A stretch of 64,000 nucleotides of DNA from a virus. The notes beneath the pieces were generated by a model that saw nothing but the letters and a program-made list of their open reading frames with translations, was not told where the DNA came from and ran no database searches. Below are positions 3,789 through 38,403 of this stretch, in pieces. The stretch is from IMG/VR virus record IMGVR_UViG_3300024348_000008. One strand, written 5' to 3'. The translations under genes were made by a program, and so were the position numbers. Numbering within the stretch: the first letter of the stretch is position 1; the number at the start of each line of letters is the position of its first letter.

Positions 3789-6700
3789 ATGGCATTAACA
3801 AAAGTAGTAAGACATTTAAGTAGCACACCAAGTATTGTAGATGGTGGGAACGCTACTGCGATCACGATTGATAGTTCAGAGAATATATCACTAGCTTCAC
3901 ACGTTCAAGTAGCCGATAATAAAAATTTAAAGTTTGGTGATGATACTGATGCACAATTGTATTATAATTCATCTAATGATATATTTTATATTTACAATAG
4001 TGGTGCTAATGGTGGCACTATTATACAAAATAATAGTGCATCAGGTGGAATTGTATTACAACCTGTTCCTAACGAAAATGCCGTATTTTGTGCACCTAAT
4101 GGCGAAGTTATACTTTATCATAATAGTTCAGCAAAACTAACCACAACATCGACAGGAATAACTGTCACCGGTGCAATTACTGGTACACTTGCAAGCACTG
4201 TTACTGCAACTACACAATCAGCAGGAACTAATTCAACTTTAATCGCAACGACAGCCTATACAGATGCTGCAATCACTGCGCTTGTTGGTGGTGCTCCTGC
4301 AACCTTAGATACACTTAACGAAATTGCGGCATCAGTTAATGATGATGCTAACTATGTTGGTACAGTTAATAGCTTACTTGCTGCAAAAGCACCTTTAGCC
4401 AGTCCTACATTTACTGGAACAGTAACTACTTCTGGTAATTTAGATATAAATGGAAATCAGTTAATCTTAGATGCAGATGCAGATACTTCAATTAGAGAAT
4501 CCGCAGATGATTATTTAATAATGAAAGTTGGTGGAACGGATTTAATTAAAATAGATGCAAGTGGTTTAGGAATAGGAATAAGACCAGCAGAAATGCTTGA
4601 TATTCAGTCGGCTTCAGGCGATGCAAGAATAAGATTAGATGCTCCTGCAGGTTCAGACACAGAAGTTAAATTCTTTAATGCCGGCTCTGCTCAATATACT
4701 ATTGGACATGATGATGGTACTGATAACTTTGTTATTGGTGGTGCTAATGTAGATGCACCTTATGTTAATGTAACTAAGGCAGGATATGTTGGTATAGGAA
4801 TTACGGATCCTTCAGATTACTATGCAAAAAATTTAGTTGTAAATAGTGGTGCCGAAGGTGGTATCACTATTGTCGGTGGAACGGGTCATGTGAACTATCT
4901 TATGTTCGCTGACGGGACATCGGGTAATACTCAATATCGTGGTTATATTGAGTATAGCCATATTACTGATGGAATGAAGCTCAATACAGCAGGTACTCCT
5001 GCGCTAACTCTTGATATATCTCAAAACGCTATATTTACAAACGATATTAAGTTTACTTCTGATGCTGGTGGAAACATAGGATTAAATTCCGGAAATAGAC
5101 CTAATAATATATCTATGGCAGGTGGGCTTGGTGTTAATGCGGCTGCTGGAGGTGCAGGAACGATCGCCTTCTCAGGTGATATAACACAAGCACAAGGTGA
5201 TTATCTTTATAGTGGTGGCACCAACTTTGATATTAAGCATACAGTTGCATCTCAAAATATAATTATTTCTACAAGACCTAGTGGTGGTTCTATAACACCT
5301 AGAATGAGAATCACTCATGATGGAAAATTTGGTATGGGAGATACTCCATCTAATTTAACCTCTGAAATAATAACAATAACAACTCCGGCTTCTGGTGGTG
5401 GACAAGGTATAGCCTTTAAACGATTAGACAGTAATAATGACCAAACAGTCGGACAAATAAGATTTTCTAATAATGCAACAGATAATTTAGCATATATTAG
5501 ATGTATTACAGATGGAGATACTACATCTTCAAGATTAGAGTTTCATACAAATACCGGTTCAGCAACTGCTGCAAACTTAGTAATTAAAAAAAATGGTAAT
5601 GTTGCTATAAATTACGGTTTAGGCGGTGGGGCTATAAACTCTAAGTTCAATGTTTTTGCAGATGGCGAAGCTCTTCGTTTAGATGGTACTGCAAACACAT
5701 CACGAACACTTAGATTTAGAAATGCTGCAGTCAATGGTTCTGGTAACGCAATTATAACATCAGATGGAATTTTACAAATAAAGACAGAAGATGCTAATGC
5801 ACACATATATGTAAACTCCGTAAGAGATATTGCCATGCAAGTCACGTCTTTAAACGGAACTGCTGGCCACTTTACATTCTCCTCTTATAATACAGAAATT
5901 ATGAGAATTGATGGTGCTAATAACAGAGTTGGTATAGGTACTGGAGCGAATCCTAATCTTAAATTGCACGTAGAAGAAAACGCTGATACTTGGGTTGGAG
6001 AGTTTAAGAACGTAAGAGGCGCTGGTGGTTATGGTTTAAGAGTTGATATGTCAGCAGGTAGTGCTACAGATACAAGATATGCTCTTGGTGTTTATACACC
6101 AGGTAATAGTGGCCTTTTTGTAAGAAATAATGGCAATGTTGGTATTGGAACAACGGCCCCTTCAGATACATTAGTTGTTCAAAGAAGTACTGCAAATATA
6201 GAACCTATACTCGTTATTAAAAACGATAATACTACTGATGATAATGGTGTATCAATAGATTTCTCAGGTAAAGATACATCATCAAATCATGTTATATATG
6301 GTCGTATTGCTACGAAATATACTAATCATAGTACTGAAAAATCTCATATGATTTTTACACACAGAAATAATAGTGGTACTTTTGATGAATGGATGAGAGT
6401 TAATCATGATGGCCAAGTTGGTATCGGAACAGCGAGTCCAAGTTCTGCATTGCATGTTCATGAGAATGATTCTGCCAAAGGCAATACACAATTACATATT
6501 CATAATGATAAAACAGATGATGCAGGTGTACTAAGAATTGAAGGTAAAAGAATCTCAGAAAACGATACAGCCCAAATTTTACTTGCTAATAATGGTAATT
6601 TAGTATCAGCAATTAAAGCATATTCAGGCGGAGATGGAGGGCATTTAAGATTTTATACAAGTAAATCTGGTAGTGGTTCTTCAGCTATGGATGAAAGATT

Positions 6701-11668: not shown

Positions 11669-14600
11669 ATGGCAAAATCAAAAGCAAGATATTTAGCAGA
11701 AATATTAGGATCAGACGGTAAAGTTCAAAAATCTAAATCAAAAGGTTTTACAGAACTTGCTGTAAGTGATTTGCCTGATAATATTACAAATGCTAAATTA
11801 CAAAATTCTAGTATAACTGTTGCTGGAGATTTAGTATCTCTTGGAGGCAGTGTTGCAATTGATACTTCTGAAATTACAGAACATACTAATGCTAAATTTC
11901 ATACTACTGCAAGAGCAAGATCTGCAATAAGTGCGACTGGTTCTTTATCATATAACTCCTCAACAGGTGTTATGTCATTTACAATGCCTGCACAAAATAC
12001 TTCTAATATTACAGAAGGTTCTAACTTATATTTTACAAATGCAAGAGCAGATGCAAGAATAACTGCTGCAGATACAGGAGATTTATCTGAAGGATCTAAT
12101 TTATACCATACAACTGCAAGAGCAAGAGCGGCAATAAGTGAAAACTCTACGCAATTAGCATATAATAGTAGCACAGGTGTATTAACATTTACACAAGGTG
12201 ATACTGACACTGTATCAGAAGGTTCTAACTTATATTATACTAATGCAAGAGCAGATGCAAGGGCAAATGCTCGTATTGCTGCATCAGATACAGGTGATTT
12301 ATCTGAAGGTTCTAATTTATATTATACTAATGCAAGAGCGGATGCAAGAATAGCAGCAGCAGATACCGGTGATTTATCAGAAGGTTCTAACTTATATTAT
12401 ACTAATGCAAGAGCAGATGCAAGAATAACAAATGCAGGTAGTGGAAATTGGAATACAGCATATGGATGGGGAAATCATGCCTCAGGCGGGTACGCGCCCC
12501 TGGCCGGGCCTGCCCTCACCGGTGCACCTACCGCCCCTACGGCCGCGGCAAATACAAATACAACACAGATTGCAACCACTGCTTATGTACAAACAGAACT
12601 TACCGATTTAATTGACGGAGCTCCAGGAACATTAGACTCATTAAATGAATTAGCCGCTGCGATCAACGACGATGCAAACTATAATTCAACTCTTACAACG
12701 GCATTAGGAACTAAAGTAGCAAAAACTTCTAATCAAGCATTAGGTACTGCGGCTAATGTTATGACAATTAGTGGTAATACAATTACACTTGCAAGAGGTG
12801 ATAGCACTACAGATACTGTTACGGTACCAGACACTAACACAACTTATACTGCAGGGACTAATATGTCTCTTAGCGGTACAGAATTTTCATCTACAAATAC
12901 AACATATTCTGTAGGCGATGGTGGTCTTACACAAAAGAATTTCACAACTACACTTAAATCTAAACTAGATGGTATAGCCGCTGGTGCCACTAATACAGCT
13001 GCTCCTCATTATACTTCTGCTATTGCAGTTGGAGATGGTGGTCTTACACAAAAGAATTTCACAACTGCTCTTAATACTAAACTAACAGGCATAGCCGCTA
13101 GTGCAAATAACTATACGCTACCTTTTACCGATAACTCAGCTAACTGGAATACTGCTTACGGTTGGGGTAACCATGCGAGTGCTGGATATGTAACTACTGA
13201 TAATAATACTACATATACTGCCGGAACAAATATGTCTCTTAGCGGTACAGAATTTTCATCTACAAATACAACATATTCTGTTGGAGATGGTGGATTAACA
13301 ACTAAAAACTTTACAGCAGCACTTAAAACTAAATTAGACGGCATTGAAACAAGTGCAACAGCAGATCAAACCGCAGTTCAGATATTAACTGCTATAAAAA
13401 CTGTAGATGGTGCAAGTTCTGGTTTAGATGCTGACTTATTAGATGGAATACATGGTGCTTCATTACTTAGATCAGATGTACATGATACTGGCGTAGGACT
13501 AGCTATAAACGGCGGAACTCTAAACCAAGCTCATGATTCAACCTTATATGTAACTGCAGGTAATAATAGTGACTGGGGTATTACAATTGGTGCTGCTTCA
13601 GGTAAAACTGAATACGGTATGCAAATTCAGATGCCCTCCTCATTCAATTACGCACTTAGAATTTTAAAGAACGGATCAGAGCACTTTAATGTTAATTCTA
13701 CTGGCGCAACAATTGGTGGAAACTATATTTGGCACGCTGGCAACGATGGTGCAAGTTCTGGTTTAGATGCTGACTTATTAGATGGACAACATGGTTCTTA
13801 TTACGCGGCAGCTAGTAGCTTAAGTAGTTACTTACCACTGTCGGGAGGTACTCTTTCTAGTTCTTTACATTTAGGAAATGATGTAGGATTAACATCTACT
13901 ACTACAGGTGAAACTTTACGTGTTTTATTCCCTGGTGGTGGCGCAAGAAAAAATAGCGGGTCAAGTGAAACTGGTGCAATTAAAATAACATTACCGGTTG
14001 GTATGACGAATAGTATGTTATCTGTTAAGGTTAGTGTCTATCAATATGATTCGCATGAATCTTTTGAAGTACATTTTGGTGGTTATAACTATCCTACTGG
14101 AAATACTTGGGCACACAATCCCTTTGGTTATATTACTGGATCTCCTAAAGCAAATCATGGACCTTATGCAATAAGATTTGGATATGATAGTAATAGTAAA
14201 GCTTGCGTTTATATTGGAGAAACTAATACTACTTGGTCTTATCCAACAATAAGTGTTACTGAAGCTGAAATAGGTTATTCTGGTTATACTAATACTTCAT
14301 GGGATAATGGTTGGGATGTATCAATTGTTACAAGTTTCGAAAATGTAACTGCTACAATAGCGGCCACCGAAACAAATATTGGTATTAGTTTAGCTAATGG
14401 AGTAACCCATCAGCAAACTGCTCAATTAAAATTAAAAGCTCATACAAATGGTTGGGCAGGTGGTTTGGCTCTGATTTCATCAGATGGATCTGATACTTTT
14501 CAAATTCATCCAGATGATAATGGTTATATGTATGTCGATAAAACATGGAATTTCTCGGCCGTACCTCATGTAGGTGTTGGAAACCCCGTTTGGTATACAG

Positions 14601-17497
14601 GCAATGACGGTTCTGGTAGTGGGTTGGATGCAGATTTGCTTGATGGAAATCATGCCTCTGCATTCTTAATAGCTTCTCCAACTAGTATAACAATTGATGG
14701 AACCCAAGATCAGACAATAAGTACTACCACCCATAGTTTAGAAATTAAAAATGCAGGCGCTACTAGTAGCGGTGGTTTAGTACTACAAGGATCAGACGGT
14801 ACACATGGTCTTCAGCTGTATTGGGACGGTAGTGGTGCTAACTATGGATTCTTAGATGGTGCATGGGCCAGTTGGGATATTCAAAAAGTTAGAAATGGTA
14901 CTTTTAAAGTTGACGAAGGTGCAGGTTTAAAACGAGTTCTTAACGAAGCTAACTGGTCAAGTTATATATCAAATAATAATCAGCTAACAAATGGTGCTGG
15001 TTATATTACCGCATCTGGTACTGCGAATCAGTCACACATGGTTTCAGGTTCTGCCTTTGGAACAACTAGTTCACCTAGTAGTGTTTTAGAATATCAACAA
15101 GCAAGCGGTCAGACCGATACAAGATTGGCTCCTTCTGGCGACTGGCATAACAGTATTCGAATGGGTCATGGTAACCCATATAATTACTACTCCAACACTA
15201 TTGCGGCAAGAATGACGGGCACAGGTTATGGAGATTTATACACTCAGTGCATTTATAACAATTCCGCACAAGGTTGGAGAAAGATTTGGAGTGCAGGCAA
15301 CGATGGTTCAGGTTCTGGATTAGACGCAGATTTACTTGATGGTGTTAATAGCGCTTCATTTCTAAGATCGGATACTGCAGATACATTTACTGGTACTCTC
15401 ACAATGGGTACACAATTTGCGTTAGTTCCCAATAATTATGGGCTTGGCCTGTTTGGTCTTTATGCATCTACTCGGTATCAACATGTTTGGTCAATGGGAA
15501 CAGCATATAAAACTTCTACTGATGGCACGTCATACGGTAATATATATGGTCTAACTTACACTCACCCAAACATTGGCACTGGTACTAATCAATCTATCTC
15601 AGGTTTAAGTCATCAGCTTCAGGGAAGAGAAAATGGTACATTGACCTGGGCTTTGGGCACAGGGATATGGACAGCTAATACTATTACTTCTGGGAACCAA
15701 GGTACTTTGTGGGGTTCAAGCAACGACGGCTCAGGCTCTGGTTTAGATGCTGATTTACTTGATGGACAACAAGGTTCTTACTATTCAGCTGCACACTCTC
15801 ATCCATATTTAGGTACATCAGCTAAAGCTGCCGACTCTGATTTATTTGATGGACATAATTCTGACAAATTTGTATTCGGTACTAGCGGATACGGTACTAC
15901 TAGTATGGGGTTTGCATCTATAACAAACCAAAAGTCAGGGTTTTACGATGTGCATAACAGCGGAACTCCTACATCAACATGGTACTCGCTTCTCAACATG
16001 GCTCATTATGGAACCAATCACGGGCATCAAATTGCTGGCTCGTTTTATAGCGCAGGAGATATCTATAATCGTAATAATAATAACACTAGTTTAAGTTCTT
16101 GGGCAAAGATATGGAACACTGCTAATGACGGTTCAGGTTCTGGATTAGACGCTGATTTGTTGGATGGCGTGCAAGGTAGTGGGTATGCTCGGTTAGGTGG
16201 CAGTAATCATGCAAGAACTTATCCAAATAGATGGTTTGCAACAGCAGATAGCGATAATATCATTGATTTTTATGATCAAAACCATGCAAAAGCCCATCTA
16301 GGAAATAGTAGTAAATATACAACCTCTAGGCCTGTTATTACATCAGATCAAAACTATTGGGTCGGCTCAATGGGATGGGGGAACGTTGATCTAAATACTA
16401 TCCTGAATTATGGATCAGGATTCTGGGATTCATGGAGTAGTCCCTCAAATAGACCTTCTACATATACTAGCCACTGGAATGGCTTTAACGCCATGCACTA
16501 TACAGCCAGTAGCACATATCACCACGGTATGCAGATGGCAATGGGTGCAGGTAATCCCGCACACACATATCTAAGGGGTTGGTGGTCTAGTAGTTCAGGT
16601 TATGCGTGGCAGAAAATATGGACAGACGGAAATGACGGCTCAGGTTCTGGATTAGATGCTGATTTATTAGATGGAAATCAAGCATCAGCATTTATGTTGG
16701 CTGGTGCTGCACCTAATGCTCATAATCACACCGGTGTTTATTTACCTATAGGTAGTAAGGCTGCTGACTCTGATCTGTTAGATGGTCTAAATTCGGCGTC
16801 TTCCGGGGCCGATATAGTTTTAAGAACCGACTCCAATTCTTATTTACAAATTAATAACTGGACACAGGTTGGTGGAGCCGGTATGTATTCATCCAGTGTT
16901 AATGGTTTCCACTGGTATGCTAATAATAGCTTTACTTATGGTTGTGGAAGATTAAACGGTGCAAGAAATGGTTATTCTGGTATTGTTCTAGATACCGGTG
17001 GGGATGTTGTTCTCGGCATGTATGATTCAGGTGGTAATGGTGGAGATTATAATACAAGTAGTGGATGGCATTCTTATTACCATAGAGGCAATGATTGTTT
17101 AGGAATTGCTGAATCAACCACATCAAGCTCATATGGATGTTATGTTACTGGTGCAATATATGCAACCGGTGATGTTGTAGGTTCTTCTGATGTAAGGCTG
17201 AAAAAGAATATAAATACTATTGAGAATGGTTTAGCTAAAGTTGAGAAACTAAGAGGTGTTACATACGAATGGAAAGATGCAAAAGAATCTGGTTCGGATG
17301 GAAATAATATAACCCCAGAAAGAATGGGTGTTATTGCTCAGGAAATTATAGATATAGTACCTGAAGTTGTAACACACGATAAAGAAAACGATCGATATGG
17401 TGTTTCTTATGGTCATTTAACAGGTGTACTTATCGAAGCTATAAAAGAACTAAGTGATAAAGTAAAAGAATTAGAGAAAAAATTAGAGGAAAAATAA
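11669..17497 (+). CDS. Long tail fibre with C-terminal intramolecular chaperone (peptidase S74-type), 1942 aa
   Basis: C-terminal SDVRLKKNI...GVIAQEI...VSYGHLTGVLIEAIKEL; 7 GLDADLLDG repeats and 5 EGSNLY repeats. Confidence 0.85.
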   Translation: MAKSKARYLAEILGSDGKVQKSKSKGFTELAVSDLPDNITNAKLQNSSITVAGDLVSLGGSVAIDTSEITEHTNAKFHTTARARSAISATGSLSYNSSTGVMSFTMPAQNTSNITEGSNLYFTNARADARITAADTGDLSEGSNLYHTTARARAAISENSTQLAYNSSTGVLTFTQGDTDTVSEGSNLYYTNARADARANARIAASDTGDLSEGSNLYYTNARADARIAAADTGDLSEGSNLYYTNARADARITNAGSGNWNTAYGWGNHASGGYAPLAGPALTGAPTAPTAAANTNTTQIATTAYVQTELTDLIDGAPGTLDSLNELAAAINDDANYNSTLTTALGTKVAKTSNQALGTAANVMTISGNTITLARGDSTTDTVTVPDTNTTYTAGTNMSLSGTEFSSTNTTYSVGDGGLTQKNFTTTLKSKLDGIAAGATNTAAPHYTSAIAVGDGGLTQKNFTTALNTKLTGIAASANNYTLPFTDNSANWNTAYGWGNHASAGYVTTDNNTTYTAGTNMSLSGTEFSSTNTTYSVGDGGLTTKNFTAALKTKLDGIETSATADQTAVQILTAIKTVDGASSGLDADLLDGIHGASLLRSDVHDTGVGLAINGGTLNQAHDSTLYVTAGNNSDWGITIGAASGKTEYGMQIQMPSSFNYALRILKNGSEHFNVNSTGATIGGNYIWHAGNDGASSGLDADLLDGQHGSYYAAASSLSSYLPLSGGTLSSSLHLGNDVGLTSTTTGETLRVLFPGGGARKNSGSSETGAIKITLPVGMTNSMLSVKVSVYQYDSHESFEVHFGGYNYPTGNTWAHNPFGYITGSPKANHGPYAIRFGYDSNSKACVYIGETNTTWSYPTISVTEAEIGYSGYTNTSWDNGWDVSIVTSFENVTATIAATETNIGISLANGVTHQQTAQLKLKAHTNGWAGGLALISSDGSDTFQIHPDDNGYMYVDKTWNFSAVPHVGVGNPVWYTGNDGSGSGLDADLLDGNHASAFLIASPTSITIDGTQDQTISTTTHSLEIKNAGATSSGGLVLQGSDGTHGLQLYWDGSGANYGFLDGAWASWDIQKVRNGTFKVDEGAGLKRVLNEANWSSYISNNNQLTNGAGYITASGTANQSHMVSGSAFGTTSSPSSVLEYQQASGQTDTRLAPSGDWHNSIRMGHGNPYNYYSNTIAARMTGTGYGDLYTQCIYNNSAQGWRKIWSAGNDGSGSGLDADLLDGVNSASFLRSDTADTFTGTLTMGTQFALVPNNYGLGLFGLYASTRYQHVWSMGTAYKTSTDGTSYGNIYGLTYTHPNIGTGTNQSISGLSHQLQGRENGTLTWALGTGIWTANTITSGNQGTLWGSSNDGSGSGLDADLLDGQQGSYYSAAHSHPYLGTSAKAADSDLFDGHNSDKFVFGTSGYGTTSMGFASITNQKSGFYDVHNSGTPTSTWYSLLNMAHYGTNHGHQIAGSFYSAGDIYNRNNNNTSLSSWAKIWNTANDGSGSGLDADLLDGVQGSGYARLGGSNHARTYPNRWFATADSDNIIDFYDQNHAKAHLGNSSKYTTSRPVITSDQNYWVGSMGWGNVDLNTILNYGSGFWDSWSSPSNRPSTYTSHWNGFNAMHYTASSTYHHGMQMAMGAGNPAHTYLRGWWSSSSGYAWQKIWTDGNDGSGSGLDADLLDGNQASAFMLAGAAPNAHNHTGVYLPIGSKAADSDLLDGLNSASSGADIVLRTDSNSYLQINNWTQVGGAGMYSSSVNGFHWYANNSFTYGCGRLNGARNGYSGIVLDTGGDVVLGMYDSGGNGGDYNTSSGWHSYYHRGNDCLGIAESTTSSSYGCYVTGAIYATGDVVGSSDVRLKKNINTIENGLAKVEKLRGVTYEWKDAKESGSDGNNITPERMGVIAQEIIDIVPEVVTHDKENDRYGVSYGHLTGVLIEAIKELSDKVKELEKKLEEK
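12860..13281 (+). repeat. Intragenic 53-bp exact direct repeat (12860-12912 and 13229-13281)
   Basis: AATATGTCTCTTAGCGGTACAGAATTTTCATCTACAAATACAACATATTCTGT occurs twice, indicating a recent internal duplication. Confidence 0.85.
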
Positions 17498-34751: not shown

Positions 34752-35054
34752 ATGAAAAATTATAAAACGCAACAATTAGAAATGATTGATCTTAATTGGG
34801 ATGGTAATGTTGATGACGATGTTAATTCGAAGATTGCTTCAGCCTTTGCTTTAAATCCTTCAGACAATATTGCTTTTTCAGATAGTGAAAAAGTGTCATA
34901 TAATCAGTTTTGTACTAGAATGTGGTTAGATAATTGTGATGAAAATCTTGCTTTTGGTTCAACGCGATATACACAAAAAGAATACACTGTAAAGTTTCAA
35001 TCTTGGTTAAAAGAAAAATGGAGAATAAATAATGGCAACGTTAACAGCAAATAA
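34752..35054 (+). CDS. Hypothetical protein
   Basis: In-frame ATG 34752 after the promoter; FCTRMWLDNCDE. Confidence 0.65.
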   Translation: MKNYKTQQLEMIDLNWDGNVDDDVNSKIASAFALNPSDNIAFSDSEKVSYNQFCTRMWLDNCDENLAFGSTRYTQKEYTVKFQSWLKEKWRINNGNVNSK

Positions 35055-35496
35055 GAATTTTTTAACTCCAATAGGATTTAAATTTTCTATTGATAATACT
35101 TTGTATCCTAATTTAGAATATTTTTGTAATTCTGTAACATTGCCAAGTATATCTTTAGCAGGAGTTGATACTCCATATAAGGGTGTTAATTTAGGTTTTA
35201 CCGGTGATAGATTAGAATTTGATGATTTAACTATTACATTTAATATAACAGAGAATATGGAAAACTATAAAGAAACGTTTGATTGGATGCATAATAGTAT
35301 TACAACAAATGAATCTTTCACTTCCGATGCTACACTGAGTGTGTTATCTTCACACAATAATGTTACACAGGAAATTATATTTAAAGATTGTTTTCCTACA
35401 TCTTTAAGTGGAGCTGATTTTACATCAATAGCTAATGACGTTGAGTATTTACAAGCTTCTGTGACATTTAAATATACGTACTTTGAATTTAAATAA
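35032..35496 (+). CDS. gp3: Tail tube terminator gp3-like
   Basis: NFLTPIGFKF, GDRLEFDDL, FKDCFPTSLSG. Confidence 0.85.
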   Translation: MATLTANKNFLTPIGFKFSIDNTLYPNLEYFCNSVTLPSISLAGVDTPYKGVNLGFTGDRLEFDDLTITFNITENMENYKETFDWMHNSITTNESFTSDATLSVLSSHNNVTQEIIFKDCFPTSLSGADFTSIANDVEYLQASVTFKYTYFEFK

Positions 35497-35549: not shown

Positions 35550-36005
35550 ATGGAGAAAATTATGGATTTAGATACTATTCTAGAAATGTGGAAGAAAGAT
35601 TCACAAATAGATGAAATGGCCTTAGACGAAGCTTCTCGTCAATCTGCAAATTTACATTCTAAATACTTAGAGCTCTTAAGTTCAAATCGCATGCGGTTAA
35701 AGAAAGCTCAATTAGAATATAAGGTTATACTTAAAGATAAGTTTAATCATTATGGCGGTAAATTAACTCAAGAAGAAATGGATTCAAAAGGATGGGAATA
35801 TGATCCTTTACATGGTAATACTGTGCTCAAAGGAGACTTAGATAAATATTATGATGCAGATCCAATTATTCAAGAACACCAAGCCAAAATTGCATATTTA
35901 GAAGAAATTACAAGTGTTCTTAAAGAAATGTTAGAGAATATTAAATGGAGACATCAGAACATTAAGAATATGATTGAATGGAGAAAGTTTACCAGTGGCA
36001 TATAA
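35550..36005 (+). CDS. uvsY: Recombination mediator UvsY
   Basis: WKKDSQID...LHSKYL...IKNMIEWRKFTSG; synteny with uvsW. Confidence 0.88.
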   Translation: MEKIMDLDTILEMWKKDSQIDEMALDEASRQSANLHSKYLELLSSNRMRLKKAQLEYKVILKDKFNHYGGKLTQEEMDSKGWEYDPLHGNTVLKGDLDKYYDADPIIQEHQAKIAYLEEITSVLKEMLENIKWRHQNIKNMIEWRKFTSGI

Positions 36006-36918
36006 AATATATGATCATAAGTTTGAATGGAAAGGGAACTTCGATTATGCACGTACGTGTATAAAACAAGCATTGGAACAAATAGATTATCCAGAAGATC
36101 TTAATATATTTAATCATACTGATTTAACTCAGATGAATTATTCGAATGTGTTATTTGTTAAACCTACAGCACCTACTTCAAAACATTTTGCAATTGATAC
36201 TATTGGATATGCTAATGCTTCTAAATTGGCTTTCGAAGAACCATATGAACCAGATATAATGTATTCTCATTTAAATTCTAAGAACAATATGGATTGGAGT
36301 AAAATAGAAACTCTAATTAATCAAAGATCTAATAAATGGGATGATTCTATATTACTCAAATGGAGAAAGGCTAAAGATGTACCAAAAGAGCATATATTAG
36401 TTATCGGCCAGATGCCCGATGATGAAACTGTAAAAGGATTTGGTTTAGGTGGTCATTGGGAAAGTATTACATTGATAGTAGAAAGATTATATGCACAGGT
36501 AACAGAGTTTCCAATCGTAGTAAAGATTCATCCAAGATTAAAGCTAAGAGGCAAACAAAAAGATATTGTAGATAAATGGATTCAAGATGGAATAGATGTA
36601 AGAGATGGATATGAATCTATACATGACTTCCTTCCGCATACTCGAGTTGCAATATTAGATAATAGTACTGCAGGAATAGAATGTTTAATGCATGAAGTAC
36701 CTATTATATCATATGGTTTTCCGGAGTATCATTGGGTAACTAAACAGCTACAAAGCTTAACTCAATTACCTAAATTATGTAATGATATAAGTTGGCATAA
36801 AAAAGAAAAGGCCATGAAATTTATATATTGGTACATTAATGATTATCTTTGTTATGATGTTGAAAGCACAAAGAATAGGTTGAATGAAATTTTTAATATA
36901 AGTAGGTTTAAAGATTAA
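35995..36918 (+). CDS. KpsS/KpsC-like (capsule synthesis family) GT-B glycosyltransferase
   Basis: LVIGQMPDD, IVVKIHP, NSTAGIECLMHEVPIISYG. Start inferred at GTG 35995. Confidence 0.65.
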   Translation: MAYKIYDHKFEWKGNFDYARTCIKQALEQIDYPEDLNIFNHTDLTQMNYSNVLFVKPTAPTSKHFAIDTIGYANASKLAFEEPYEPDIMYSHLNSKNNMDWSKIETLINQRSNKWDDSILLKWRKAKDVPKEHILVIGQMPDDETVKGFGLGGHWESITLIVERLYAQVTEFPIVVKIHPRLKLRGKQKDIVDKWIQDGIDVRDGYESIHDFLPHTRVAILDNSTAGIECLMHEVPIISYGFPEYHWVTKQLQSLTQLPKLCNDISWHKKEKAMKFIYWYINDYLCYDVESTKNRLNEIFNISRFKD

Positions 36919-36924
36919 ATTTAA

Positions 36925-38403
36925 ATGGAACAGATTGTAATATCTAAATTAAACGAAAGTTTTTTACAAATTAGTTGCGAATCCAGTACAGAAAGAGAGT
37001 TATCAGAACACTTCTGTTTTTATGTACCTGGATATAAATTTATGCCGGCATACCGTAATAGAGTATGGGATGGTAAGATTAGATTATTTGATTATCGTAA
37101 AAAACAAATCTATTGTGGACTATTTAATTATTTAAAAGAGTTTGCACAAGAACGTGGTTATAAAATAATTACAGATTATGAACCTACCAGCACAGAAAAT
37201 GTAGATGAACTTATCTCCCGCCTGCCCCTGACGGCCGCGGGCGCGCCTATCCACCCGCGCGGGTACCAGATAGAAGGTATTAAACATGCTCTATCTAATA
37301 ATAAATCCTTATTATTATCTCCTACTGCAAGCGGTAAATCATTAATGATATATTTAATGATAAGACATTTTTTAGAATCTAATGATAAACAAAACATATT
37401 AATAGTGGTTCCTACAACATCATTAGTAGAACAAATGTATACTGATTTTGGAGATTATAGTTCAACCGATAGTTGGAATGTTGATAACAATTGTCATAGA
37501 ATATATTCTGGTAAAGAAAAAATAAATTTAAAACATAGAGTTATTATAACAACTTGGCAATCTGTATATAAAATGAATTTGTCTTGGTTTAATTCATATG
37601 GTATGGTTATAGGAGATGAAGCTCATAATTTTAAAGCTAAATCTCTCACTGCTATATTAGAAAAATGTGTTAATGCTAAATACAGAATTGGCACCACAGG
37701 AACTTTAGATGGTACCCAAACCCATCAATTAGTATTAGAAGGTTTATTTGGACCTGTGCACAGAGTTACATCAACAAAATCATTAATGGATGCAGATGAT
37801 TTAGCTCAATTAGAAATACGCATATTATTGCTTAAGTATGCAGATAGATATATGCGTAGCATAGCAAAAGCAAAATATCAAGAAGAATTAGATTTTCTTG
37901 TTGGACATAGTCCACGAAATGAATTTATAACAGATCTCACCGTTAAATTACGTGGAAATGTATTGGTGTTATTTCAATATGTAGAAAAACATGGTAAACC
38001 TCTACATGATATTCTTAAGAAAAAGGTAGCTAAAAATCAAAAATTATTTTATGTGAGTGGAGAAACTGACGTTGATACACGAGAAAATATAAGATCTATT
38101 ACTGAAAATGAAAATAATGCTATTATTGTTGCGAGTATGGGAACATTTTCTACCGGTATTAATATTAAAAAGTTACATAATATAATATTTGCATCACCTT
38201 CTAAATCACAAATAAGAGTCTTACAATCTATTGGTAGAGGTCTCCGTAAGAGTGGAGATGGTATAAATACTATAGTATATGATATTGCTGATGATTTGCA
38301 TTGGAGAACTCAAAAGAATTATACTTTAAAGCATGCGGCAGAAAGAATAAATATATACAGTAAAGAGAAATTTACATACAATATAAATGAGATAAACCTA
38401 TGA
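36925..38403 (+). CDS. uvsW: SF2 helicase UvsW
   Basis: SPTASGKS, GDEAH, GTTGT, LQSIGRGLR. Confidence 0.95.
   Translation: MEQIVISKLNESFLQISCESSTERELSEHFCFYVPGYKFMPAYRNRVWDGKIRLFDYRKKQIYCGLFNYLKEFAQERGYKIITDYEPTSTENVDELISRLPLTAAGAPIHPRGYQIEGIKHALSNNKSLLLSPTASGKSLMIYLMIRHFLESNDKQNILIVVPTTSLVEQMYTDFGDYSSTDSWNVDNNCHRIYSGKEKINLKHRVIITTWQSVYKMNLSWFNSYGMVIGDEAHNFKAKSLTAILEKCVNAKYRIGTTGTLDGTQTHQLVLEGLFGPVHRVTSTKSLMDADDLAQLEIRILLLKYADRYMRSIAKAKYQEELDFLVGHSPRNEFITDLTVKLRGNVLVLFQYVEKHGKPLHDILKKKVAKNQKLFYVSGETDVDTRENIRSITENENNAIIVASMGTFSTGINIKKLHNIIFASPSKSQIRVLQSIGRGLRKSGDGINTIVYDIADDLHWRTQKNYTLKHAAERINIYSKEKFTYNINEINL

What the first reader, a model, noticed from the sequence alone, without database searches (positions are those of the whole stretch)
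12481..12550. Extreme GC patch in the fibre gene sharing a motif with a patch in uvsW
Seen: 55 of 70 nt are G/C in an AT-rich genome, achieved largely through synonymous third positions. The related peptide APLASPTFTG near 4390 uses ordinary AT-rich codons. The patch contains GCCCCTACGGCCGCGG (12533-12548), which recurs as GCCCCTGACGGCCGCGG at 37224-37240 in an unrelated gene; both patches also carry GCGGGTAC. Inference: a nucleotide-level signal is overlaid on coding sequence, such as a packaging, replication or recombination site, a protein-binding site, a dense target for C modification, or a ribosome pause.
Basis: partly seen in the sequence, partly recalled or inferred. Interest (0 to 1): 0.7.

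Follow-up and report, generated by a model that had tools for sequence, protein, structure and literature searches.

The report
Inherited GC islands inside phage genes
Two short, very GC-rich stretches written into the codons of a tail-fibre gene and a helicase gene of an AT-rich marine phage are real, and the helicase one has been kept GC-rich by related phages against the genome's mutation bias, so something acts on the DNA or RNA letters themselves, most likely to slow the ribosome.

Summary
In this 34%-GC marine T4-like phage window only two stretches reach 80% GC: fibre gene 12479-12550 and uvsW 37216-37269. Both are made of codons the phage otherwise avoids (GC3 17/24 and 18/19; P about 1e-9 and 1e-14). 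They are not artefacts. Four independent IMG/VR contigs (L161, L259, L260, L261; UvsW about 81-84% identical) carry the uvsW island at the same codons. 125 more distant AT-rich uvsW genes show no GC3 excess there. Synonymous sites in the island turn over at the normal rate but towards G/C. Amino acids shifted too (positions 1-2: 9-14 AT-to-GC changes against 2 reverse). A neutral model predicts decay to GC3 0.27-0.55; the window and L260 hold about 0.9. So a local GC-favouring force maintains the island, not a frozen sequence. Both islands lie at domain or module junctions and are the most stable mRNA segments of their genes. My best reading (about 40%) is a conserved rare-codon, stable-mRNA "speed bump". 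Rivals are a GC-biased conversion hotspot and a DNA-level site. The shared 16-of-17 motif is only weakly beyond chance. Intein scars, T4-type origins, structured RNA and an identifiable GC-rich donor were tested and not supported.

The parts
12479..12550 (+). Fibre-gene GC island: 24 codons (residues 271-294, ASGGYAPLAGPALTGAPTAPTAAA) of the 1942-aa fibre ORF; 79% GC, GC3 17/24
   Evidence: It lies at the 5' edge of a widely shared fibre module (117 of 378 tblastn HSP starts fall at residues 270-279). It is the most stable 60-nt mRNA segment of the gene (-24.6 kcal/mol against mean -9.0, sd 3.6, 962 windows).
37216..37269 (+). uvsW GC island: 18 codons (residues 98-115, SRLPLTAAGAPIHPRGYQ); GC3 17/18 (18/19 counting codon 97)
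   Evidence: It is conserved at the same codons in L161, L259, L260 and L261. It covers the linker between UvsW_N (residues 9-84) and the helicase core (from residue 109). It is the most stable 60-nt mRNA segment of the gene (-21.6 against mean -7.2, sd 3.8, 237 windows).
12533..12548 (+). Copy of the shared motif GCCCCTACGGCCGCGG (encodes A-P-T-A-A)
   Evidence: Chance assessment.
37224..37240 (+). Copy of the shared motif with one extra base, GCCCCTGACGGCCGCGG (encodes P-L-T-A-A-G). It lies inside the 20-nt run CGCCTGCCCCTGACGGCCGC that is identical in window, L161 and L260
   Evidence: Runs of 21 and 19 identical nt also occur in AT-rich parts of the gene, so the run is not exceptional.
11669..17497 (+). 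Tail-fibre ORF (1942 aa) that holds the first island; gene-wide GC3 0.21
   Evidence: PHROG tail-fibre families; Peptidase_S74 chaperone domain at the C-terminus.
36925..38403 (+). uvsW helicase ORF (492 aa) that holds the second island; GC3 0.15 outside the island
   Evidence: (E 1e-91 to T4 UvsW, PDB 2oca).
4389..4418 (+). Internal control: the paralogous fibre peptide APLASPTFTG written in ordinary AT-rich codons
   Evidence: GC3 0.07 over the 30-codon stretch.

Best explanation
Shown: the two patches are genuine, sharply bounded GC islands of about 18-24 codons inside AT-rich genes. The uvsW island arose once in the ancestor of a small clade of marine T4-like phages. It has since been held GC-rich at the same codons by a local force that favours G/C at all three codon positions, while the actual letters keep changing. 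Inferred (about 40%): the property under selection is what GC content does to the message. That is a run of about 20 codons that phage and host rarely use, plus the most stable local mRNA structure in the gene, placed at a domain or module junction (UvsW N-domain to helicase core; fibre N-terminal module to shared collar module). It would act as a translational speed bump that slows or throttles ribosomes, to aid folding or assembly of the part just made or to limit output of these low-copy late proteins. The fibre island is read as the same kind of thing by analogy. The motif shared by the two islands is mostly a by-product of similar peptides written in the same GC-rich codons.
For: Real and inherited: the uvsW island is present at identical codons in 4 independent IMG/VR contigs (patch GC3 0.63-0.89 against 0.20-0.23 in the rest of each gene; window 0.95 against 0.15). 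Relatives P0002-P0004 from ENA, Logan and JGI keep the island peptide. Clade-specific: 79 of 80 more distant loci show no island there, and mean GC3 excess at the site is 0.00 in 125 distinct AT-rich outgroup genes. Maintained: 4-fold sites outside the island are near saturation (identity 0.46 against 0.35 expected). A two-state neutral model predicts GC3 0.27-0.55 even from an all-GC ancestor, but the window has 12/13 and 13/15 (P 9e-5, 3e-6) and L260 14/15 (P 1e-7, 1.5e-3). Rarity rather than identity is conserved: synonymous conservation is 8/16 in the island against 165/321 elsewhere, with G/C interchanges at codons 105, 111 and 112. This is the signature Chaney et al. 2017 describe (PMC5438181, abstract read). 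All island codons are rare in this phage (for example CTG 0.017, GGG 0.036, CGC 0.058 of their families). Position: Pfam puts UvsW_N at 9-84 and the helicase core from 109. The fibre island sits at a module junction. Both islands are the single most stable 60-nt mRNA stretch of their genes, and the 5 best windows in each gene overlap them. Native folds are no better than shuffles (z -1.5 to +0.8), as expected if composition and not a specific fold is selected.
Against: Codon rarity alone does not predict the amino-acid shift: positions 1-2 show 9-14 AT-to-GC changes against 2 reverse relative to 49 distinct outgroup sequences, including D to G in the near-invariant PRDYQ. 125 outgroup uvsW genes do without any island at this site. 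L161's island is compatible with neutral decay (8/13 and 9/15, P 0.08 and 0.44). The other uvsW island seen (L004 and L024, residues about 370-392) lies inside the second helicase domain, not at a junction. No expression, ribosome or folding data exist. Inheritance of the fibre island rests only on one relative's peptide (P0062 keeps PLAGPALTG; P0058 does not). The 16-of-17 motif shared by the two islands (P 0.002-0.007) is not explained by this reading.
Confidence: 0.4

Rival explanations
1. GC-biased gene conversion or repair at a fixed recombination hotspot. The islands mark places where heteroduplex or break repair recurs in these highly recombinogenic T4-like phages and is resolved in favour of G/C. 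This drives AT-to-GC changes regardless of codon position and without benefit to the phage.
For: AT-to-GC changes occur at all three codon positions (pos1 0.53 to about 0.8, pos2 0.43 to about 0.7, pos3 0.26 to 0.67-0.94). There are 9-14 W-to-S against 2 S-to-W changes at positions 1-2, including a near-invariant residue. In L259 and L260 the island has grown by five contiguous codons (CTG GCG GGG GTG AAG) with three amino-acid changes. Turnover rate is normal with a flipped equilibrium. The fibre island sits exactly at a mosaic junction where modules are exchanged. T4 origins coincide with recombination hot spots (reference list of PMC3016281, passages read).
Against: The 5' edge is sharp and identical in all five sequences, with no GC shoulder. 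Relationships among the three lineages do not switch across the island, though this is a weak test. The genome as a whole is 34% GC despite recombination-dependent replication. My searches found no report of GC-biased conversion in phages (titles and abstracts of the 6 listed of 9 papers only). Only 2 of 125 outgroup uvsW genes have any such island.
Confidence: 0.2
2. A DNA-level functional site that needs high GC, possibly with the shared core GCCCCT(G)ACGGCCGC. Examples: a protein-binding or recombination-joint sequence, a hard-to-melt barrier, or a dense cluster of modified cytosines that serves as a landmark for replication, recombination or packaging.
For: GC is maintained against mutation bias. 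The two islands share a 16-of-17 match in the same orientation (P 0.002-0.007) that falls in the best-conserved part of the uvsW island. GCGGGTAC occurs nowhere else in the window. The window encodes thymidylate-synthase-family, dCMP-deaminase and MazG-like enzymes. An earlier unchecked note (e1-5903137) reads these as a hydroxymethyl-cytosine pathway, which would make each island a block of 40-57 modified C on the two strands (base counts).
Against: There is no sequence conservation above the gene's background. The motif is changed in L259 and L261 (ACG to GCG) and L161 (GCG to GCA). No further copy exists within 3 mismatches in 64 kb on either strand. Promoter and terminator matches are at chance level. 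T4-type origins need an A+T-rich unwinding element, the opposite composition (PMC3016281, passages). The motif was found post hoc.
Confidence: 0.2
3. Functionless relics of short patches imported from GC-rich homologues. For the fibre this could be what is left between two module-swap crossovers with a fibre from a phage of about 55-65% GC.
For: Only GC-rich phages (locus GC 0.55-0.69) encode the fibre motif with comparable GC (0.68-0.88) and GC3 (0.47-1.0). The fibre island is at a module junction. Both edges are sharp. The amino-acid differences are those typical of GC-rich versions. L161's uvsW island looks like it is decaying.
Against: No donor was found. The best nucleotide identity among 130 motif instances is 0.75, against 0.71 (sd 0.04) expected for the same peptide with random GC-biased codons (P 0.19). 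A word-based search of 5.8 billion proteins found the uvsW island peptide only inside the clade (4 hits among 9 candidates). The window and L260 hold GC3 far above neutral decay. G/C interchanges show continuing GC-directed turnover.
Confidence: 0.1
4. Assembly, chimera or sequence-handling artefact in this contig.
For: Raw reads could not be inspected. The exact patch sequences are absent from IMG/VR. The fibre island's DNA is seen only in this window.
Against: The uvsW island recurs at the same codons, with lineage-specific differences, in four contigs from different metagenomes. The window's exact UvsW and fibre proteins are recorded on 9 and 4 contigs. Both islands keep frame and homology.
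Confidence: 0.02

Closest known systems
Position-conserved synonymous rare-codon clusters (Chaney et al. 2017, PLoS Comput Biol, PMC5438181; abstract and outline read)
   Same: A cluster of about 20 codons that are rare for the organism sits at the same aligned positions in homologues. Rarity is conserved rather than codon identity. It is thought to tune translation rate and co-translational folding.
   Different: Here the shift also changes amino acids towards GC-rich codons. The cluster is confined to one small clade and absent from 125 outgroups. It lies in a virus, and no effect on translation is shown.
GC-biased gene conversion tracts at recombination hotspots (for example in mammals; PMC12290510, abstract only)
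   Same: Clustered AT-to-GC substitutions hit synonymous and non-synonymous sites alike, including conserved residues. The island can extend over time.
   Different: The 5' edge is sharp and stable, and no hotspot is demonstrated. No GC-biased repair is known to me in T4-like phages, and the surrounding genome is strongly AT-rich.
Motif-guided module exchange in T-even tail-fibre genes (recalled from memory; an earlier unchecked note on this genome, e1-5903132, describes such joints in these fibres)
   Same: The fibre island lies exactly where homology to many other phages' fibres begins, that is, at an exchange junction on a highly conserved peptide motif.
   Different: Known joints are conserved DNA words shared between partners. 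This island is a compositional outlier shared with no sampled partner, and the uvsW island is not in a shuffled gene.
T4 replication origins oriF and oriG (Kreuzer and Brister 2010, PMC3016281, passages read; that they lie in uvsY and gene 34 is recalled, not seen in the passages)
   Same: These are about 100-bp nucleotide-level elements embedded in genes of the same functional neighbourhoods (recombination genes, a large fibre gene). They are linked to R-loops that UvsW unwinds and to recombination hot spots.
   Different: T4 origins consist of a middle-mode promoter plus an A+T-rich unwinding element. The islands are GC-rich and have no promoter match above chance.

Membership tests
Position-conserved rare-codon cluster | Run of codons that are rare in the organism's own usage | tested here: met
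   17/24 and 18/19 G/C-ending codons against 3.5 and 2.7 expected; each codon used has a frequency of 0.02-0.11 within its family.
Position-conserved rare-codon cluster | Rarity kept at the same aligned positions in homologues while codon identity varies | tested here: met
   Met within the clade: 5 sequences in 3 lineages, island GC3 0.63-0.95 against 0.15-0.23 elsewhere; synonymous conservation 8/16 against 165/321. Not met beyond the clade: excess 0.00 in 125 outgroups.
Position-conserved rare-codon cluster | Purely synonymous: protein sequence unaffected | tested here: not met
   Positions 1-2 show 9-14 AT-to-GC against 2 reverse changes relative to outgroups; for example NK to AP and D to G.
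Position-conserved rare-codon cluster | Slows translation or affects folding | not testable with these tools
   Indirect only: the islands are the most stable mRNA segments of their genes and sit at domain or module junctions.
GC-biased gene conversion tract | AT-to-GC bias irrespective of codon position | tested here: met
   GC rises at positions 1, 2 and 3.
GC-biased gene conversion tract | Coincides with a recombination hotspot | tested here: inconclusive
   No switch of relationships across the uvsW island (low power). The fibre island is at a mosaic junction.
GC-biased gene conversion tract | Graded decline of GC away from the centre | tested here: not met
   The 5' edge is abrupt and identical in all five sequences; only the 3' edge varies (codon 115 against 120).
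Homing-endonuclease, intein or intron landing site (recoded target or co-conversion scar) | Relatives carry an intein, intron or endonuclease gene at the site | tested here: not met
   In the 8 longer UvsW homologues found (7 with Hint, LAGLIDADG and homing-endonuclease domains, the eighth with a Hint domain), inserts map to helicase motif I (after residue 135) and motif II (about residue 232), not to 97-115 or about 370-392. 0 of 176 uvsW loci are split by an insertion. No endonuclease gene flanks the islands.
Homing-endonuclease, intein or intron landing site (recoded target or co-conversion scar) | Foreign tract contiguous with the insertion point | tested here: not met
   Codons 116-135, between the island and the motif-I intein site, are AT-rich.
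T4-type R-loop origin (oriF/oriG) | Middle-mode promoter upstream | tested here: inconclusive
   Sigma-70-like matches are at chance level (9 against 6.6, sd 2.7; 3 against 2.7, sd 1.7). MotA boxes were not modelled.
T4-type R-loop origin (oriF/oriG) | [quoted passage not shown] | tested here: not met
   The islands are about 80% GC. The requirement is stated in PMC3016281.
Horizontally acquired mosaic patch | A donor lineage with above-chance nucleotide identity | tested here: not met
   Best 0.75 against null 0.71 (sd 0.04), P 0.19, over 130 motif instances. No out-of-clade carrier of the uvsW peptide. The genome and metagenome scans were uninformative.
Horizontally acquired mosaic patch | Amelioration towards the recipient's composition | tested here: not met
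   The window and L260 stay at GC3 about 0.9 against 0.27-0.55 expected; only L161 fits decay.
Structured RNA element | A fold better than composition predicts, conserved among relatives, or a match to a known family | tested here: not met
   z-scores are -1.5 to +0.8 on both strands. MFE folds differ between the window and L161. There are no Rfam or tRNA/tmRNA hits in the window.

The most novel reading that the evidence does not exclude
The islands are DNA-level landmarks peculiar to this phage lineage. They would be blocks of densely (hyper)modified cytosine, with a shared core GCCCCT(G)ACGGCCGC, written into coding sequence and kept GC-rich because a phage protein or the recombination and replication machinery uses them, for example as start or pause points for recombination-dependent replication or packaging. 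That would be a new kind of cis-element hidden in genes of T4-like phages.
Probability: 0.12. Interest if true: 0.8.

Novelty: new variant of a known kind. Interest (0 to 1): 0.5.

Why it matters
Marine T4-like phages are among the most abundant viruses. Their genes are usually read as protein code shaped by AT-biased mutation. Here a stretch of about 60 nt has been held at about 80% GC for longer than it takes synonymous sites to saturate, at the cost of changing conserved amino acids. That gives a clean natural case for asking what selection or biased repair can do to 'silent' sites in a virus. The two main readings make different, testable predictions. One is a translational speed bump at a domain junction. 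The other is a gene-conversion hotspot, which would be the first such island described in a phage as far as my searches show. Practically, such islands are easily mistaken for chimeras or foreign DNA in metagenome curation. They also matter for anyone recoding or expressing these genes.

Tried and rejected
Artefact: rejected for uvsW (four independent contigs). Read mapping was unavailable and no whole genome is held, so the other roughly 80 kb of the phage could not be scanned.

Exact patch sequences in IMG/VR: none.

Metagenome scan with the window's patch segment: two spurious hits only. A profile built from several clade members' segments was not run. Clade DNA is therefore limited to L161, L259, L260 and L261, and no DNA was obtained for the ENA/Logan relatives P0002, P0003, P0062 and P0058.

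Fibre orthologues in IMG/VR: none closer than about 53%.

Donor search: nothing above chance.

Structured RNA, tRNA, Rfam: nothing.

Promoters and terminators: chance level.

Intein, intron or homing scars: inteins exist in UvsW but at motifs I and II, and no split loci were found.

DGR-type mutagenesis: not pursued. A and T are equally depleted (5-8 each) and no reverse transcriptase is in the window.

T4-type origin: wrong composition.

Other candidate spikes: L401 is an alanine-repeat effect (GC3 0.56). L161 520-571 is driven by amino-acid composition in a non-orthologous gene.

-1 frameshift signal: a slippery-like heptamer precedes the fibre island, but none precedes the uvsW island (and reading), so it is not a common explanation.

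Literature: two searches found nothing on short GC tracts in AT-rich phage genes (listings and abstracts only).
Full report
**What the window is.** The 64-kb window is 34% GC and all its larger ORFs are on the + strand. PHROG and Pfam scans show a T4-like myovirus. The structural genes include several giant fibres, sheath, tube, portal, major capsid and terminase. The DNA-metabolism genes include UvsX, UvsY, UvsW, gp55-like sigma factor, Mre11/Rad50-like nuclease, clamp and clamp loader, DNA polymerase, a thymidylate-synthase-family enzyme, dCMP deaminase and MazG. It also encodes ribosomal protein S21. GenBank phages match only distantly, at 64-74% nucleotide identity to cyanophages, Pelagibacter phage HTVC008M and Methylophilales phages. 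It is therefore an uncultured marine T4-like phage.

**The observation.** These are 55/70 G+C at 12481-12550, the two motif copies at 12533-12548 and 37224-37240, GCGGGTAC in both patches and nowhere else in the window, and the paralogous peptide APLASPTFTG at 4389 in AT-rich codons (GC3 0.07).
- A 50-nt sliding scan finds exactly two stretches at or above 0.66 GC in 64 kb, with peaks of 0.80 and 0.82. The median is 0.34 and the 99th percentile 0.52.
- In frame, the fibre patch is 24 codons (ASGGYAPLAGPALTGAPTAPTAAA, residues 271-294 of ORF 11669-17497). The uvsW patch is 19 codons (ISRLPLTAAGAPIHPRGYQ, residues 97-115 of ORF 36925-38403).
- Given these peptides and the window's codon usage, G/C-ending codons are 17/24 against 3.5 expected (P 7e-10) and 18/19 against 2.7 expected (P 8e-15).

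**Rarity of such islands.** I applied the same kind of scan (45-nt window at least 0.34-0.36 above the local +-500-nt background) to 417 fetched loci, 2.83 Mb of marine phage DNA.
- Apart from the window it found only the orthologous uvsW islands of L161, L259 and L260.
- It found one island at another uvsW site, in L024.
- It found L401, an alanine-repeat artefact with GC3 0.56.

**The uvsW island is inherited.** The 80 closest IMG/VR uvsW loci from a whole-protein query are at most 69% identical. In the 79 that cover the site, none has an island; their peptide is L.DL.LTAGGNKI.PRDYQ in ordinary codons.
- A search of the large protein collection restricted to residues 85-128 found the window's own protein (on 9 contigs, the longest 144 kb). 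It also found three relatives 81-86% identical overall that keep the island peptide.
- Their DNA could not be fetched. Reference-based scans of IMG/VR did recover four contigs of this clade from different metagenomes: L161, L259, L260 and L261. L261 is cut at codon 105, and its first 288 nt are identical to L259.
- All four carry the island at the same codons. GC3 inside is 0.63, 0.84, 0.84 and 0.89; outside it is 0.20-0.23. The window has 0.95 against 0.15.
- The 5' edge is at the same codon in all. In L259 and L260 the island runs five codons further 3' (CAG CTG GCG GGG GTG AAG), with I>L, E>A and I>V.
- In 125 distinct AT-rich outgroup uvsW genes the mean GC3 excess at this site is 0.00. 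The island is therefore an innovation of this clade.

**It is maintained, but as composition, not as sequence.** The three lineages (window; L161; L259/L260/L261) are roughly equidistant, at 0.75-0.83 nucleotide identity in every segment.
- Between window and L161, 4-fold sites outside the island are 0.46 identical, against 0.35 expected at saturation.
- I fitted a two-state W/S model to those sites. Even an all-GC ancestor should have relaxed to GC3 0.27-0.55. The window shows 12/13 and 13/15 (P 9e-5, 3e-6) and L260 shows 14/15 (P 1e-7, 1.5e-3). L161 (8/13, 9/15) fits decay.
- Synonymous conservation across three full-length sequences is the same inside the island (8 of 16 comparable codons) as outside (165 of 321).
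- Several island codons differ between lineages by G/C interchange: 105 GCG/GCA/GCC, 111 CCG/CCA/CCC, 112 CGC/CGT/CGG.
- The 20-nt run identical in three sequences (CGCCTGCCCCTGACGGCCGC) is matched by runs of 21 and 19 nt in AT-rich parts of the gene.
- So substitutions proceed at the normal rate, towards an equilibrium of about 0.85 GC3 instead of about 0.2.

**The force acts on nucleotides, not only on codon choice.** Relative to the majority codons of 49 distinct outgroup sequences, GC rises at position 1 (0.53 to 0.78-0.83), position 2 (0.43 to 0.67-0.72) and position 3 (0.26 to 0.67-0.94). Changes at positions 1-2 are 9-14 AT-to-GC against 2 GC-to-AT. This includes D to G in the otherwise near-invariant PRDYQ. 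The fibre island shows the same tendency: S>G and V/T>A relative to the usual APLASPALTG[VT]PTAPTAAA.

**Where the islands sit.**
- UvsW: Pfam places UvsW_N at residues 9-84 and the helicase core from 109. The protein aligns end to end with T4 UvsW (2oca, E 1e-91). The island therefore covers the interdomain linker and the first helicase motif.
- Fibre: the island is at the 5' edge of a module shared with many phages. 117 of 378 tblastn HSPs to the first 450 residues start at residues 270-279, and upstream-module HSPs end at 250-259.
- Each island is the most stable 60-nt mRNA segment of its gene. uvsW is -21.6 kcal/mol against -7.2 +- 3.8 (237 windows). The fibre is -24.6 against -9.0 +- 3.6 (962 windows). 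The five best windows of each gene overlap the island.
- The native sequences fold no better than dinucleotide shuffles (z -1.5 to +0.8), and the folds of window and L161 differ. Stability comes from composition, not from a specific conserved fold.

**The shared motif.** With both peptides fixed and codons drawn with the observed GC3, an exact common 10-mer has P 0.12-0.29. A 16-nt match with one indel has P 0.002-0.007; with plain shuffles the values are 0.03 and 0.0007.
- It rests on similar peptides (P-T-A-A and P-L-T-A-A; G-G-Y and R-G-Y) written with the same codons.
- It was noticed post hoc.
- It is altered in L259, L261 and L161.
- No third copy exists within 3 mismatches in the window.
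- I treat it as suggestive only.

**Explanations tested and not supported.**
- Homing scars. Inteins do occur in UvsW: 7 of 8 longer homologues have Hint, LAGLIDADG and homing-endonuclease domains, and the eighth has a Hint domain. The inserts lie in helicase motif I (after residue 135) and motif II (about residue 232). Codons 116-135 are AT-rich. None of 176 uvsW loci is split by an insertion. No endonuclease gene flanks the islands.
- Foreign donor. GC-rich phages (55-69% GC) encode the fibre motif with similar GC. The best identity among 130 motif instances is 0.75, against 0.71 +- 0.04 expected by chance. The uvsW island peptide occurs only in the clade.
- T4-type origins. These need a promoter and an A+T-rich unwinding element (PMC3016281, passages). 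The islands are GC-rich, with promoter matches at chance level.
- Known RNA families and tRNAs: none.

**Interpretation.** What is shown is a clade-inherited, position-fixed compositional island that is kept GC-rich against the genome's mutation bias by a force acting on the nucleotides. What that force is remains inferred.
- I favour selection on the message (about 40%). About 20 consecutive codons that the phage uses at 2-11% of their families, plus the strongest local mRNA structure, at a domain or module junction, is the configuration proposed for conserved rare-codon clusters. In those, rarity and not identity is conserved (Chaney et al. 2017, abstract). Selection on GC or mRNA stability, rather than on codon rarity alone, would also account for the amino-acid shift.
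- Against this: the island is absent from 125 outgroups, one lineage seems to be losing it, and the other uvsW island (L004 and L024, residues about 370-392; 2 of 125 outgroups) is inside a domain.
- A GC-biased conversion hotspot (about 20%) explains the position-independent AT-to-GC drive and the 3' extension. It does not explain the sharp, stable 5' edge.
- A DNA-level site (about 20%) would explain the shared motif. It would be especially interesting if the DNA carries modified cytosine, as an earlier unchecked note suggests. But sequence conservation is not above background.
- A functionless foreign relic (about 10%) remains possible mainly for the fibre island, whose inheritance I could not test. 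Only the peptide of the nearest relative, P0062, keeps PLAGPALTG; P0058 has PIASPGLTG.

**Limits.**
- No raw reads were available, and the rest of the genome was not available.
- Only four relatives provide DNA, one of them truncated and two nearly identical to each other, so the comparison rests on effectively three lineages.
- The neutral model rests on 13-15 four-fold sites in the island and on small counts outside it.
- Outgroup polarity is assumed from the majority state.
- Papers: Chaney et al., abstract and outline only. Kreuzer and Brister, the passages returned by a term search. All other papers, search listings and abstracts only.
- The locations of T4 oriF and oriG in uvsY and gene 34, and the T-even fibre recombination motifs, are recalled and were not seen in a call.

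Noticed in passing
L024:2665-2708 and L004 around 2658-2707: Two uvsW genes less than 69% identical to each other each carry a GC3-rich island at the same other site (LFYVSGETDVDTRE, window residues about 370-392). L024's is a sharply bounded 42 nt in which every codon but the last ends in G/C. They are the only 2 of 125 AT-rich outgroup genes with an 18-codon window at GC3 excess of 0.5 or more. The family-wide mean excess there is small (0.04-0.09).
   Followed up: partly
window 12469-12475: A slippery-type heptamer G_GGA_AAT in the fibre frame (codons TGG GGA AAT of GWGNH) lies about 9 nt upstream of the fibre island, the most stable mRNA segment of the gene. The -1 frame stays open for 48 codons. 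The second GWGNH in the same gene (nt 13160) is written TGG GGT AAC and has no such heptamer. No heptamer precedes the uvsW island, so this may be chance.
   Followed up: partly
proteins P0129-P0136 (homologues of window 36925-38403): Intein-bearing UvsW helicases exist in metagenomes. Inserts of about 280-350 aa, with Hint, LAGLIDADG and homing-endonuclease domains in 7 of the 8, lie in motif I (…SPTA|SGKS…). In two proteins a second insert lies in motif II (DEAH).
   Followed up: partly
window 35974-36915: A 314-aa ORF between uvsY and uvsW matches Pfam Capsule_synth (capsule polysaccharide biosynthesis protein, E 1.5e-8) and no PHROG family. This is an unusual neighbour for the recombination genes.
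   Followed up: no
L161:1-615: In the clade relative L161 the gene upstream of uvsY is a different, non-orthologous ORF (at least 204 aa, cut by the contig end) from the tube-like gene at window 35032-35493. Gene content next to uvsY therefore varies within the clade.
   Followed up: no
L259 and L261: Two IMG/VR contigs from different metagenomes are identical over the first 288 nt of uvsW. The same phage population was sampled twice.
   Followed up: no
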